From Eledone cirrhosa (lineage: Eukaryota), in NCBI GenBank assembly GCA_964016885.1, contig CAXHJY010000117.1, positions 7,260-71,259 of the forward strand: DNA of 64,000 nt. Reading direction: 5' to 3'. The first letter of the stretch is position 1; the number at the start of each line of letters is the position of its first letter. Made by a program: the position numbers and the translations under genes. A model generated the notes under the pieces. That model saw only the letters and a program-made list of their open reading frames with translations, did no database searches and had not been told where the DNA came from. Of this stretch, positions 1-42,148 are shown one piece after another.

Positions 1-222
1 ATTTATCTATAAAACTGTTTATATCGTATTTTGTCTGATGAAGGCATAGCATATTGTTAATATGATATCCCCGAAATATATATAATGAAATAAATATGGT
101 TTTATAAATATAGTTTTCCATTTATTTAATATTGTAAATATACTCCAAATATTTGTCGAGTGCTTTTATATCAGTTATAAATATTTACTAGTTGTAACCC
201 AACAATTTTAAATATAACTTTA
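1..222 (+). mobile_element. Family A hammerhead-bearing Penelope-like terminal remnant (cut by window edge)
   Basis: Homologous to 14918-15250 and 8040-8150; ends in (TA)n; GAGTGC at 158-163. Confidence 0.65.
27..92 (+). ncRNA. Minimal type I hammerhead ribozyme (family A)
   Basis: Helix I TATTTTGT/ATGAAATA, CTGATGA 35-41, helix II CATATT/AATATG, GAAA 73-76, palindromic helix III TATATA, TA cleavage site. Confidence 0.8.
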
Positions 223-298
223 CATATATTTATATATATATATATATATTTATATATATATATATTTATATATATATATATTTATATATATATATATT

Positions 299-1590
299 AT
301 ATCGTGTAATCAGAAACTAAGAAAAACATTTAAATATTATAAACCTAATTAATAACATTATTTTAGATATTAATGTAGGGCGGTGGATTGGCAGTATCGG
401 TAGAGGGTCGGACGCCATGCTTTCCAGCATAGTTACGTCCCTTTACGATCTGAGTTCAAATCCCGCCGAGGTTGACTTTGCCTTTCATCCTTACGGGGTC
501 GATAAAATAAAGTACCAGTAATGCACTGGGTAATTGCTGGCCTTGTGCCTAAAGTAGAAACAATATTTTAGATATTAATATATAATTTAATTTAAATGTT
601 AGTTAACCTATAAATTTAATTTAATTAAAATTCTACTACAGATGAGATTATAAAATATTGTGTAATCATAAAATTGTGAAAAACTTTTAAATATTACTAA
701 TATATACTTTGTAAATTAATTTATAGATTAATTTTAATTTATTTAACCTTTTACTAAAATTCCTTTACAGATAAAATTTAACAAAATATCGTGTATTCAA
801 TGACAGAGAAATATTTTTTAATATTATTGACCTAATTAATGTACAATTTAGAAATATATTTATAATTTGGTTTTAATTTGGTTAACCTAAAATTTAATTT
901 AATTGGCTTAAAATTAAAATCCTAATACAGATGGATTGCAGAGGTGTCATGTAATCATAGACTGAGATAGGTTTTAGATGTATACCTAGTTAATATATTC
1001 TTTGCAATTTTTGAAAAAATATGTATATATATGTGTACGTGTATATATATATATATATATATATATATATATATGAATATATATGTGTGTATATATTAAT
1101 TTTAATTTTTGTTTACCTATAATTATATTGTACTATAGATAAAATACAATATCTGTTTTAATTATTATAAACCTAATTAACATATACTATAGAAATTAAT
1201 ATATAATTTTTAATTTAGTTAACCTATAATTTATATTCTACTACCGATGTAATACTTTATTTGGTTTTTTTCCCTATTACTAAATTCATTTTCTAATATT
1301 GATACCATAACGTTAATAATTTTAATTTAGTTATACTATAATTAATACTCTACTACTATTTAACTTCAAAATTCCGCTTCAAATATTATAAACCTAAGTA
1401 GTATACACCTTAGAAATCAATATATTAACTATCTTTAATTTAGTTAACCTATAATTAATAGTCTACTTATATTAAATGCATAATTTTGCCTTCTTTCTTA
1501 CATTTCCTAATACTGAAACTACTATGTAAACACATATTATGATCTAAATGCAGATTAATATTCTATGTTTCTTGAAACTATATTTACTAT
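299..1590. repeat. Degenerate AT-rich tandem repeat, unit ~130-160 bp
   Basis: Recurrent variants of ATCGTGTAATCA, AATATTATAAACCTAATTAA and TTAGTTAACCTATAA near 300, 657, 787, 946, 1160 and 1380; interrupted by a SINE. Confidence 0.6.
378..563 (+). mobile_element. tRNA-headed SINE (main family), full length
   Basis: B-box GAGTTCAAATCC, central GCCTTTCATCCTTACGGGGTCGATAAAATAAAGTACCAG; 16-bp TSD TATTTTAGATATTAAT at 359-374 and 564-579. Confidence 0.9.
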
Positions 1591-1629
1591 AATCCCCTCC
1601 CCCACCTATTATTATTTGTATTTGTAAGC

Positions 1630-3075
1630 GTGGATGTATGTATGTATATGTAGGTAGGTATGTATGTTTGGGTGTTTGTATGTGAGTATAAAAATACATA
1701 TGTGCGCATGTAAATAAGGGTGTATGATTGTATATATATATATATATATATGTATATATTGTATATATATATATGTATATATATATATATATATATATAT
1801 ATATATATATATGTATCTATGTATTTATGTGGGTATATGTGTGTATGTATATGTATGCGCATATATACGTCTATGTGTATATGTGTGTATGTGTATATAT
1901 GTACGCATATGTGCATGTATATGTGAGTGTGTATATGTATATATATATATATATATATATATTTGTAGTTGATGTGTGTATGTGTATATATATATATGTG
2001 TATGTATATGTATGTATATATATATATATATATATATATGTATATGTGTATATATATATATATATATATGTATGTGTGTGCATATTTGTCTGACTGGGTG
2101 TATTAATTTATTTATTTATTTATTTCTTTTATTTTATTATTTTATTTTTTTATTTATTTTTATATATATGTATATATATGTATATATATATATATATATA
2201 TGTATATATATGTGTGTGTATATGTATGTATGTATGTGTATGTATATATGTGTGTGTGTGTGTATGTGTGTATATATTTATGTGTATATATATCTCTATT
2301 TATAATGTATATATGTGTATGTATATCCCTTTATTTATGTATGTCTGAGTTGTGTGAGCGTGGTGGTTGTGTTTGTATGTGTATACGCATACATGGATGT
2401 GTATGTATGTGTATATATGCGTATATGTATGTGTGTATGTGTGTGTATATATGTATGTCTATGTATGAATATATATATGTATGTATGTGTATATATGTGT
2501 GTGTATATATATATATATATATATATATATTTATTATATGCGTGTGTGTATATATATATATCTTTGTGTATATGTGTACGTGTACATGTGTGTGTGTATG
2601 TGTGTATATATATATGTATATATATATATATGTATATATATATATGTGTATATTTATATATGTATATATATATATTATATATGTGTGGGTTTGTATGTGT
2701 ATAAGTGTATATACATGAGTGTATTTATGTATGTGTGTATATATATATATATATATATATATATATGTGTGTGTGTGTTGTGAATGTATGTATATATATA
2801 TGTATGTGTGTATATATATATATATATGTGTGTATATATGTATATGTCTATGTATTTATATGTGTATATGTATGTGTCTCTATATGTATGCGCGTATGTG
2901 TATGTGTATATATATGGTGTGTGTATGTATATGTATGTGTATGTATGTGTTCATGTGTATGTATATGTACGTGTATATATATATATATATATATATGTAT
3001 GTATATCGATGTATATTTTATATTTTACTTGTTTATATATATATATATATATATATATATATATATATATATATT
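1630..3075. repeat. Compound (TA)n/(TG)n/(TATG)n microsatellite
   Basis: Directly visible. Confidence 0.95.
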
Positions 3076-3229
3076 TTCTTAATATTTTTCTTTTTTCTTT
3101 TTCTTTTTATTTCTAAATTTATAGATACATTTATAAATAGGCAGTTTGCTGACACCAGTAAATACTGACCTCTTCCCCCCCCCCACCTACTTTCTGTATC
3201 TGGATCTAAATATGTGTGGCAGTGTTTAT

Positions 3230-4045
3230 GTGCGCGCATTAATGTCCATATGCTTATGATAATAGTATATACACATATGTGTGTGTGAGTGTGTGTGTGT
3301 ATTTATGTTCGTGGTTGTGTGTATGTTCGTGGTTGTGTGTATGTTTATGCGTATATGCGCGTGTGTGTGTGAATGTATGTATATGTGTGAGTATATGAAT
3401 GTGTATATATTTATTTTTATATTTATATGTTTATATGCGTATATGTATTTTATCTGTAGATTATAAACATACAGAGGACATTAGCCCTGAATTTTTGTAT
3501 TTACATACATCTTTTCGGCATGCGTATGCATGTGAACATATATTTTTATGCATATCTGTGAACGAAGTTACTTACATATATACACACACCTAACTGTATA
3601 AACTTTTTGTGTTTCCATTGGTCAATTTGAACTCTGTTCCCAAACAGACCTGTAATTTTGAATTGTTGTTATTATCAATAAATATATTTCATTATTTCTG
3701 AAGACGGCATATATATGAGTTGGTATGTATATTTAATTTTGATAGTTTGTATAATTTTGTATAATTTTGTATAATTTTGTACATAGATCTGTTAAATATA
3801 CATGCAATTCTAACACATATATATCCCAGAAACGATCGTTAATAATGAACTTTTTTTGTTTAATATAAGGAACTGTTTCATTGTTTTATTCATTATTTTT
3901 TTAATATTTTATCTTGACTCTGTATTCCGTTATCTTTCACCGAAAGTGATTTTTCATTGCATCTCTTCTTTCCATGATATCCGGATTACATTGAGTTCTT
4001 CATACGGATTGGACACTACCGTAAACTCTTGGTAGATTTATCTAC
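3230..4045 (+). mobile_element. Family B hammerhead-bearing element
   Basis: Homologous over ~650 bp to 61080-61697; contains the hammerhead fold at 3688-3849; boundaries approximate. Confidence 0.65.
3688..3849 (+). ncRNA. Hammerhead ribozyme with ~120-nt helix II (family B)
   Basis: TTCATTATTT-CTGAAGA (3698-3704) ... GAAA (3829-3832)-CGATCG-TT-AATAATGAA. Confidence 0.7.
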
Positions 4046-40376: not shown

Positions 40377-40614
40377 TATTCTGTCAGTGATTGACTCAGT
40401 CAACAGATTAATTGCTAGCAGTAACTATGTATCAGAGGAAGATGTAATACAAGACTTCCAAATTCAACAATCTCTCCTCTTGAATATCTTGAGATGTTCG
40501 TGTGACATTCAAACGTTGATAAATGGAGCAACATCAGTGACAATTTTATAGGTAGGACCACCGTTACGATCAGGCCTGACCTCGACCGCGATCACCACTG
40601 TCACATCTACCACT

Positions 40615-41415
40615 AAGACTACTACTACTACTAGAGCCATCAGCATCCCAGCACCACTACCACAACCATCAGCACCACTAGCACCACTAACACCACCACC
40701 ACCATCACCACTAGCACCACCACCACCGTCACCACTTGCACCACCACGACCACCAAAACTACTACCAATACCACAGCCACCACCACCATCACCACCACAT
40801 CACCACTAACACCACTAACACCACCACCACCATCATCAGCACCGTCACCACTAGCACCACCCTCACCGTCACCACTTGCACCACCAGCACCACCACGACC
40901 ACCAAAACTACTACCAATACCACAGCCACCATCATCACTAGCACCACCACCATCACCACCATCACCACTAACACCACTAACACCACCACCACCACCATCA
41001 TCAGCACCATCACCACTAGCACCACCACCACCACCATCATCAGCACCGTCACCACTAGCACCACCCCACCGTCACCACTAGCACCCCCCATCACCACTAG
41101 CACCACCCCACCGTCACCACTAGCACCCCCTCCCCCCATTACCACTCGCACCACCAGCCCAATCACCACTAGCACCCCCCATCACCACTAGCACCCCCCA
41201 CCCATCACCACTAGCACCCCCACCCATCACCACTAGCACCCCCCTCCACCATCACAACTAACACCCCTCCCCCATCACCACTAGCACCCCCCCACTAGCA
41301 CCACCACCACCACAGCCATCAACACCACTAACACCACCACAACAACCATCTTCTACTATAGTAGCACTACTACCGACGCCATAACCACCTCCGCCACCAC
41401 CTCCGCCACCAGCAC
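40615..41415. repeat. (CCA)n/CACCACTAG low-complexity array
   Basis: Directly visible. Confidence 0.9.
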
Positions 41416-41559
41416 AACACTATGTTGAGCCATGTGTAAGTAGTACATTGGTGGTCCATGAAAAGATTGGATTTTAATAGTTTAGTGTGGAGTTTACAGT
41501 AGGTCTGTTGGTGGAGTGATGGTTGGGGTGGGCTGTGGCAGATTATATGTGTATGTATT

Positions 41560-41724
41560 GTCGGACGCCATGCTTTGACGCATAGAGTTACGATCTTTGC
41601 CATTCTTTGAGTTCAAATCCCGCCGAGGTCAACTTTGCCTTTCATCCTTACGGAGGTCGATAAAATAAAGTACCAGTAATACACTGTTAATTTTGCTGGC
41701 TTTGTGCCAAAAGCAGAAACAATT
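41560..41724 (+). mobile_element. Main-family SINE, 5' truncated
   Basis: Homology to other copies. Confidence 0.85.
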
Positions 41725-41852
41725 ATATACATATATATATATATATATATATACTATATTATATTTTGAGAATAAAGTTGTAGTATTAGTAGTAGTAGTA
41801 TTAGTGGTAGTAGTAGTAGTAGTAGTATGCATATATATATATATTAATATAT

Positions 41853-42148
41853 ATATTAATATTAAAATATAAGTATTAATAGAATAGATGTTCTTTTGAT
41901 CAATTACATTTTATTATACATATTTCGGATGTACAACAGTACGTCCTAATCAGACAAAATATAATGATACATGTACATCCGAAATATGTATAATAAAATG
42001 TAATTGATCAAAAGAACATCTATTTTATTAATACTTGTATTTTAATATTAATAACTCCATAAAATTATTTTCTTACCGTTGAGTGCTTCCAATCTACTGT
42101 AAAACTCATTCTTTGACATAATCATTGAATATTGTTTAACACTTTAAT
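41853..42148. mobile_element. Family A-related fold-back element with GAGTGC tail
   Basis: Inverted arms ~41853-41935 and 41972-42051; unpaired tail to (TA)n. Confidence 0.8.
41907..41961 (-). ncRNA. Hammerhead with core mutation (CTGATTA)
   Basis: Minus: TATTTTGT-CTGATTA-GGACGTAC/GTACATCC-GAAA-TATGTA-TA-ATAAAATG. Confidence 0.7.

What the first reader, a model, noticed from the sequence alone, without database searches (positions are those of the whole stretch)
27..41961. Helix II covariation across family A-type hammerheads
Seen: five copies (27-92, 8068-8128, 15146-15210, 20373-20438, 41907-41961) keep helix I, the core and GAAA-TATRTA-TA. Helix II changes sequence yet still pairs: CATATT/AATATG, GTACCAAA/TTTGGTAC, ATACCAT/ATGGTAT, GTACTG/CAGTAC, GTAC/GTAC. 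Inference: RNA structure was under selection in the source elements, which argues against chance matches in AT-rich DNA.
Basis: partly seen in the sequence, partly recalled or inferred. Interest (0 to 1): 0.75.

Follow-up and report, generated by a model that had tools for sequence, protein, structure and literature searches.

The report
Covarying hammerheads of Hydra-clade Penelope retrotransposons
These are end fragments of a known kind of animal jumping gene, each carrying a predicted self-cutting RNA whose second helix changed on both strands in step, which likely means the fold was selected in the active parent elements; cutting is untested.

Summary
The five motifs are real, and there is a sixth at 61975-62044. 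They are type I hammerheads at the 3' pseudo-LTR of Hydra-clade Penelope-like retrotransposons. One 15-base anchor occurs 61,560 times in the genome (control 11). Each window subfamily links to its own RT-endonuclease lineage, copy 1 through a sister element. Covariation holds. On a protein tree independent of the RNA, 96 of 98 helix II cells pair (0 of 1,500 simulations reach this under each of four models). In an R-scape-like test the top three of 903 column pairs are predicted helix II pairs, though only one passes the all-pairs threshold. Lineages pass through G-U pairs, whereas private mutations break pairs symmetrically, so selection likely acted in source elements, not in inserted copies. 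Missed: a conserved C-C/C-A/C-U mismatch at the fourth helix II position, shared with a sister family that has a different helix I. Hammerheads in Hydra elements are published, and the scan noted such elements elsewhere in this genome. Cleavage and expression are untested.

The parts
27..92 (+). Copy 1 hammerhead (core 35, helix II 42-72, GAAA 73, predicted cut after 84); A-C at pair II1 and G-A at II8
1..229 (+). 3' pLTR fragment with tail, 93% identical to the 3' end of an ORF-bearing sister element (L108); its inverted partner lies just outside the window (G000:C144, about 7127, minus)
142..161 (+). ACTC...GAGT stem in the tail behind copy 1
   Evidence: lead from earlier finding e1-8671399
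8068..8128 (-). Copy 2 hammerhead (helix II 8113-8088, predicted cut after 8076)
8030..8180 (-). 3' pLTR fragment, 95% identical to the 3' end of ORF-linked L270, next to a (TA)n run
15146..15210 (+). Copy 3 hammerhead (helix II 15161-15190, predicted cut after 15202), young subfamily with 99% identical copies
14917..15249 (+). Insertion between two (TA)n runs: inverted tail 14917-14996, then 3' pLTR fragment 15014-15249, 97% identical to the 3' end of L049
20373..20438 (-). Copy 4 hammerhead (helix II 20423-20393, predicted cut after 20381)
20323..20503 (-). 3' pLTR fragment 20459-20323, 98.5% identical to ORF-linked L240, with an inverted partial duplicate 20455-20503
41907..41961 (-). Copy 5 hammerhead with core change G8 to U (CTGATTA), predicted inactive
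   Evidence: G8C abolishes cleavage in another PLE hammerhead (PMC11167929, passages)
41860..42053 (-). 3' pLTR fragment 41978-41860, 96% identical to ORF-linked L225, with an inverted partial duplicate 41972-42053
61975..62044 (+).
61919..62083 (+). 3' pLTR fragment, 96% identical to ORF-linked L228, followed by (TA)n

Best explanation
The six motifs are type I hammerhead folds at the 3' ends of truncated Hydra-clade Penelope-like retrotransposon copies, and their helix II covaries among element lineages, likely because active parent elements needed the folded, probably dimeric and self-cutting, RNA. Shown: the sequence, the copy number, the link to RT-endonuclease ORFs, the insertions at (TA)n, the direct and inverted repeat layout, and the covariation. 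Inferred: a transcript through a direct pLTR-ORF-pLTR tandem carries two hammerheads. Their 8-base self-complementary helix III strands would pair with each other, probably helped by the element's protein, and cut after the AUA triplet to release a unit-length RNA. The RT-endonuclease would then copy this RNA from its 3' tail into (TA)n, usually stopping early or inverting, which leaves the 130-240-base fragments seen here. Inserted copies then decay at about the neutral rate.
For: Linkage: 31 of 326 hammerhead sites had a co-oriented endonuclease end upstream in the DNA held, and 21 passed filters for an unbroken 3' UTR. They cover copies 2-6 by subfamily and copy 1 by a sister. Main lineages are 44-57% identical in protein. 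Direct tandems flank whole ORFs in L122, L123 and L322. Covariation: structure-blind MAFFT of 32 sequences gives 97.9% of 192 cells paired in six proximal helix II pairs, five with changes on both sides, 0 of 500 shuffles as high, slid controls 17-70%; RNAalifold finds the same helix. On the protein tree 96 of 98 cells pair in 14 lineages; null means 60-80, maxima 80-93, 0 of 1,500 under each of four transition biases. R-scape-like G-test with a flank-only tree, 316 sequences: ranks 1-3 of 903 are II6, II5, II3 (all-pairs E 0.02 for II6; structure-set E 0.0003, 0.013, 0.015). Strand asymmetry: 14 common variants give 174 Watson-Crick, 20 G-U, 2 A-C and 0 other of 196 cells, while private departures give 13 G-U, 14 A-C, 25 other and 1 Watson-Crick. 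Pair II2 shows G-U beside G-C in three separate clades. Helix III cannot close as a monomer hairpin but pairs as a dimer (-2.2 to -10.5 kcal/mol), and its change TATATA to TGCGCA keeps the palindrome. PLE hammerheads are described as dimeric and weak (PMC4209133, parts 1-2 of 4 read) and one is protein-assisted (PMC11167929, passages).
Against: No cleavage or expression data. In family A alone no pair passes the all-pairs test (best E 0.53), and among 34 recurrent variants only one of three top pairs is under 0.05 in the structure-set test. II1, II2 and all helix I pairs are not individually significant. Departures seen in 2-4 insertions show no G-U excess (5 G-U, 5 A-C, 3 other, 1 Watson-Crick), probably recurrent CpG changes. 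Single copies fold weakly and the minimum-energy structure is not the hammerhead (z -0.03 to -2.15 for five; -5.0 for a competing fold in copy 4). Copies were found by core-anchored patterns or by similarity, so core invariance across lineages is partly built in. In another PLE, hammerhead cleavage was not needed for insertion in vitro and no RNA reads ended at the cut site (PMC11167929). Clade assignment rests on motifs and by-eye comparison, not on a tree with published proteins.
Confidence: 0.85

Rival explanations
1. The fold is selected, but as a protein-binding or packaging structure for the element's RT-endonuclease; cleavage is slow or dispensable.
For: AUA is the slowest cleavage triplet tested in one viroid hammerhead (PMC1636495, abstract). 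Pair 10.1-11.1 is A-U or G-U in 9 of 14 lineages rather than G-C. Cleavage was dispensable for insertion in vitro in PAc. Unpaired C at II4 and A-U at II7 are kept in 14 of 14 lineages.
Against: All 12 non-free core positions are the same in 14 lineages while the free position N7 varies among U, C and A, as catalysis would demand, although the search favours intact cores. Helix III stays self-complementary.
Confidence: 0.25
2. Paired changes come from DNA-level template switching that perfects hairpins, with no selection on RNA.
For: These elements do fold back during insertion (inverted duplicates at copies 4 and 5). Distal helix II segments differ in length and cannot be aligned between lineages.
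Against: The mechanism is strand-blind and would copy both arms at once, yet lineages carry 20 G-U against 2 A-C cells. It would also repair the II4 mismatch, which persists in 309 of 316 copies.
Confidence: 0.05
3. A-to-I editing of the element RNA before reverse transcription creates the G-U excess and part of the A-U to G-C changes without selection.
For: A to G on the transcribed strand turns A-U into G-U. Many lineage-level wobbles are A/G variants. High editing in cephalopods is recalled, and the host is not established.
Against: It cannot explain C/U changes on the 5' strand of II6 (4 changes), or the transversion pairs at II3 (U-A) and II8 (C-G, A-U, G-C).
Confidence: 0.08
4. The hammerhead is a parasite-like module that moves between Penelope families independently of their ORFs.
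For: Craig et al. raise the possibility that hammerheads simply parasitize PLEs (PMC8557442, passage). Most copies examined lack an ORF nearby (31 of 326 sites linked).
Against: Hammerhead subfamilies group with their own protein lineages in the trees. Two apparent links to foreign ORFs were separate insertions split by (TA)n runs.
Confidence: 0.07

Closest known systems
Hydra clade of C-terminal EN+ Penelope-like elements and their hammerheads (Craig et al. 2021, PMC8557442; section 11, passages and supplement part 2 read), including Hydra-1_Obim
   Same: RT followed by endonuclease; DKT, RWK-like, CxCX5C and CxxC motifs; (TA)n targets; sense hammerhead near the 3' end; palindromic helix III; direct and inverted pLTRs with a tail.
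   Different: None of the 26 Hydra rows of its File S2 has this sequence or an internal C-C in the listed stem II, and the family-A anchors are absent from that supplement. Units here are 3.7-4.1 kb with 0.8-1.9-kb 3' UTRs in nearly all linked copies, against generally under 3 kb. Copy number is at least 60,000 motifs.
Minimal hammerheads of metazoan PLEs (Cervera and de la Pena 2014, PMC4209133; parts 1-2 of 4 and a supplement search)
   Same: Type I, long helix II, palindromic short helix III, predicted dimer, families described there as full of covariation, solo copies and opposite-strand pairs 100-700 bp apart.
   Different: No extra base between A9 and a G10.1-C11.1 pair; here 10.1-11.1 is a variable purine-pyrimidine pair. 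Helix I is 8 bp. Helix II is broken by a conserved mismatch; the nearest precedent is the bulged base in the Drosophila virilis helix II.
Poseidon PAc hammerhead of the green anole (PMC11167929, passages)
   Same: pLTR hammerhead with a tail, AT-rich targets.
   Different: Other PLE clade; PAc was shown to cleave only with its protein, while nothing is assayed here.
Non-LTR retrozymes and Rfam Hammerhead_1 RF00163 (PMC7229834, passages; bioRxiv 10.64898/2026.07.22.740005, part 1 of 5)
   Same: Type I hammerheads with tens of thousands of copies in animal genomes.
   Different: Family A is not seen in short head-to-tail arrays and is tied to an ORF; RF00163 hits another family in this genome and nothing in the window.

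Membership tests
Type I hammerhead ribozyme | Core CUGANGA, GAAA and UH | tested here: met
   5 of 6 window copies intact; copy 5 has G8 changed. Intact in 14 of 14 lineage representatives.
Type I hammerhead ribozyme | Helices I and II closing the core | tested here: met
   98% of cells paired in helix I and helix II; covariation.
Type I hammerhead ribozyme | Helix III | tested here: inconclusive
   No stable monomer hairpin; dimer duplex -2.2 to -10.5 kcal/mol; one two-pair compensatory event.
Type I hammerhead ribozyme | Loop 1 - loop 2 tertiary contact | tested here: inconclusive
   Helix II is extended, so the canonical loop 2 position is absent; helix I extension beat shuffles (at most 8 of 300) in 7 of 14 common variants.
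Type I hammerhead ribozyme | Self-cleavage | not testable with these tools
   No assay possible.
Rfam Hammerhead_1 (RF00163) | Score above the gathering cut-off | tested here: not met
   0 matches in the window.
Hydra clade PLE | RT followed by C-terminal endonuclease | tested here: met
   YRDD in 11 of 11 long rows, YVG/YIG in 9 of 11; order seen in L049, L122, L123, L322. Pfam GIY-YIG did not hit the L049 domain.
Hydra clade PLE | DKG changed to DKT | tested here: met
   DKTNNL in L050, L122, L123, L322.
Hydra clade PLE | N-terminal RWK motif | tested here: met
   RWK in L322, RWR in L123, degenerate (KLR) in L050, not seen in L122.
Hydra clade PLE | CxCX5C linker and CxxC before the conserved E | tested here: met
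   CxCX5C read in L049 and L050; CxxC..E in 9 of 11 rows.
Hydra clade PLE | Insertion into (TA)n | tested here: met
   Seen in the window copies and in the loci printed.
Hydra clade PLE | Absence of the CCHH motif in the endonuclease | not tested
   Not examined.
Hydra clade PLE | Generally shorter than 3 kb (descriptive) | tested here: not met
   Hammerhead-to-hammerhead distance 3.7 kb in L122 and L123, 4.1 kb in L322, owing to long 3' UTRs.
Hydra clade PLE | Placement in the Hydra clade on an RT tree with published members | not tested
   Only by-eye comparison with the published alignment.
Non-LTR retrozyme | Non-coding head-to-tail tandem units of about 150-400 bases | tested here: not met
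   Copies are solo or divergent pairs and join ORFs; no hammerhead-bearing array among the 150 of 197 tandem-repeat rows shown.

The most novel reading that the evidence does not exclude
The unpaired C at helix II position 4 (C-C, C-A or C-U) and the fixed A-U three pairs further out form a new functional element of these ribozymes. It would be a docking site for the Hydra RT-endonuclease, or a contact with helix I that replaces the usual loop-loop interaction, switching on dimer cleavage only in the element's own RNP. It is kept in 14 of 14 lineages over about 50% protein divergence and through a full replacement of helix I.
Probability: 0.3. Interest if true: 0.6.

Novelty: new member of a known kind. 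Interest (0 to 1): 0.36.

Why it matters
Whether Penelope hammerheads serve the element or merely ride along is stated as open (PMC8557442), and one in vitro study found cleavage dispensable (PMC11167929). This family gives lineage-resolved evidence that the fold descends with the ORF and is kept by stepwise compensatory change, while inserted copies decay. It also supplies a natural mutational series and a specific site, the II4 mismatch, to test for protein-assisted cleavage. The element class, the ribozyme class and the remark that such families covary are already in print, which limits surprise.

Tried and rejected
Rfam at gathering score: 0 hits; at E up to 1 the 150 of 457 rows shown were microRNA models on microsatellites. 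No PLE ORF in the window among 124 frames of 120 aa or more. Module swap with a Neptune-like ORF (L052) and with a distant Hydra ORF (L224): rejected, both are separate insertions divided by (TA)n. Alternative register with an extra base after A9: rejected by eye because it puts A-C pairs in the copy-4/5 and copy-6 lineages (sequences). A universally extended helix I: not supported, 7 of 14. Selection on inserted copies: not seen; in 30 copies found with a UTR query that excludes the ribozyme, 23 have an intact core, with core changes 6 of 359 against flanks 70 of 2,322 (p 0.17) and helix II 24 of 593. Sequencing runs: no RNA holder listed. Pfam gave no family for the Hydra ORF pieces or for two homologues. 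Protein search gave four unnamed longer homologues at 36-48%. Lunse et al. 2017 on dimeric PLE hammerheads was not held; I saw only its citation and a review's summary, so a similar variant may be described there. One supplementary file of PMC4209133 was not searched. Paper searches: hammerhead + octopus, hammerhead ribozyme + Penelope + cephalopod, hammerhead + C-C mismatch + helix II + retrotransposon, Penelope + octopus + Hydra clade showed no description of this family; an octopus repeat annotation does not mention ribozymes (passages). Earlier-findings look-ups by words and by sequence returned nothing.
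Full report
Observation. The five motifs are at the stated places, two on the plus strand and three on the minus strand, and a sixth lies at 61975-62044. Each reads helix I strand, CUGAUGA, helix II, GAAA, a six-base insert, UA, helix I strand. Copy 5 has G8 changed. The family descriptor never fired in 200 shuffled windows. Rfam has no match at gathering score.

Abundance. The genome is 3.0 Gb. The 5' anchor occurs 61,560 times against 11 for its reversed control, and a 3' anchor 49,223 times against 5. The copy-3 subfamily has 99% identical copies, many in divergent pairs, beside (TA)n runs. The host looks like an octopus from composition and from likeness to Hydra-1_Obim, but this is my impression and was not established.

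Source element. L049 holds a broken ORF with the hammerhead in sense 1.6 kb downstream and an inverted copy upstream. The ORF has DKT, YRDD, CxCX5C and CxxC motifs, which Craig et al. list for the Hydra clade of Penelope-like elements together with RWK and (TA)n targeting (PMC8557442). Of 326 hammerhead sites held at that stage, 31 had a co-oriented endonuclease end upstream and 21 passed filters for an unbroken UTR. They tie copies 2 to 6 to their own protein lineages, and copy 1 to a sister whose helix II differs at two positions. Main lineages are 44-57% identical. L122, L123 and L322 are whole units between direct repeats. The window copies are 130-240-base 3' fragments, 93-98.5% identical to those elements; copies 4 and 5 carry inverted partial duplicates, copy 3 an inverted tail.

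Sister family. A generic descriptor found a second family with another helix I (ACTGC/GCAGT) but the same layout of three pairs, C-C, longer stem and TATATA. Its anchor occurs 13,203 times against 2, and it joins a Hydra-like ORF about 50% identical.

Covariation, test 1. A structure-blind alignment of the 6 window copies and 26 of the 28 variants seen in two or more insertions (the other two equal window copies 1 and 3) gave 97.9% of 192 cells paired in six proximal helix II pairs. Five pairs changed on both sides; slid controls reached 17-70%. RNAalifold recovered helix I and helix II with a gap at the fourth position. This test ignores relatedness.

Test 2. An R-scape-like G-test with a tree from flanks only ranked II3, II6 and II5 first among 1,176 column pairs in 240 family-A sequences. 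Structure-set E-values were 0.008, 0.03 and 0.049, but the best all-pairs E was 0.53. With the sister family (316 sequences, 903 pairs) II6 reached an all-pairs E of 0.02, and II5 and II3 structure-set E of 0.013 and 0.015. II2, II1 and helix I pairs were not significant, and rank 4 was a non-pair neighbour in helix III. This is my implementation, not R-scape.

Test 3. On the protein tree, a common real variant of each of 14 lineages gave 96 paired cells of 98 over seven helix II pairs; one lineage needed a bulged U skipped by hand. Independent evolution of the two strands with the same parsimony counts gave means of 60-80 and never 96 in 1,500 runs under each of four transition biases. II6 changed four times on both strands, II5 and II3 twice, II2 three times with G-U states in three clades.

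Test 4. Common variants hold 174 Watson-Crick, 20 G-U and 2 A-C cells of 196. Private departures are 13 G-U, 14 A-C, 25 other and 1 Watson-Crick. A hand count of lineage-level origins (about 11 G-U against 4 non-pairs) against the private ratio gives p 0.0014. The asymmetry points to selection on the transcribed strand and against DNA template switching. Departures seen in two to four insertions show no such excess (5 against 5). In 30 copies found without using the ribozyme as query, core, helix II and flanks differ from the majority at 1.7%, 4.1% and about 3%, so inserted copies appear to decay neutrally.

Position 4 of helix II is a mismatch in 14 of 14 lineages and in 309 of 316 copies; pair 7 is A-U in 14 of 14 and 301 of 316. 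None of the 26 Hydra hammerhead rows in the Craig supplement shows an internal C-C in stem II. Its role is unknown; a protein-docking site or a tertiary contact is my best guess.

Mechanism. Helix III cannot form in one molecule but can as a dimer, as described for PLE hammerheads. A direct tandem would supply two sense copies. The inverted pairs would instead pair sense with antisense and are probably inert, and single copies fold poorly. The likely role is release of a unit-length RNA, possibly with help from the element's protein as shown for PAc, where cleavage was nonetheless dispensable for insertion in vitro. Cleavage and expression are untested here.

Verdict. These are new families of a known kind. 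Earlier notes of this scan report Hydra-clade hammerhead elements on other pieces of the genome, none matching this sequence.

Noticed in passing
window 21864-21819 (-) and 46919-46874 (-): A second, unrelated minimal hammerhead family with the extra base after A9, a 4-bp helix II and a CG palindrome, as in the published min-HHR consensus.
   Followed up: no
window 4281-4222 (-): A third hammerhead family with U-A at the base of helix II and helix III CCACTGG; three further variants in fetched loci.
   Followed up: no
L322:2518-6680, L014:2099 (-), L050:3139 (-): Sister family with helix I replaced but the same C-C mismatch; 13,203 anchor matches; Hydra-like ORF between direct repeats.
   Followed up: yes
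L031-L048: A canonical type I hammerhead family that does pass RF00163; 18 matches among 74 scored candidates.
   Followed up: no
window 142-161 (+): ACTC...GAGT stem in the tail behind copy 1, the feature that earlier notes propose as a copying-start signal.
   Followed up: partly
window 6659-6682, 20958-20981, 35333-35356, 35534-35557, 59110-59133, 63230-63253: Six copies of another dispersed repeat containing an ACTC...GAGT hairpin.
   Followed up: no
window 22188-22649 (+): Fragment of a Pif1-type helicase (PF21530, E 6.5e-11), probably a Helitron remnant.
   Followed up: partly
L052:2784-4450: Neptune- or Nematis-like PLE fragment with a Pfam GIY-YIG hit; a family-A copy is inserted in the (TA)n run at its end.
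   Followed up: partly
L051:7035-9899 (+): 955-aa open frame of a LINE with endonuclease and RT motifs.
   Followed up: no
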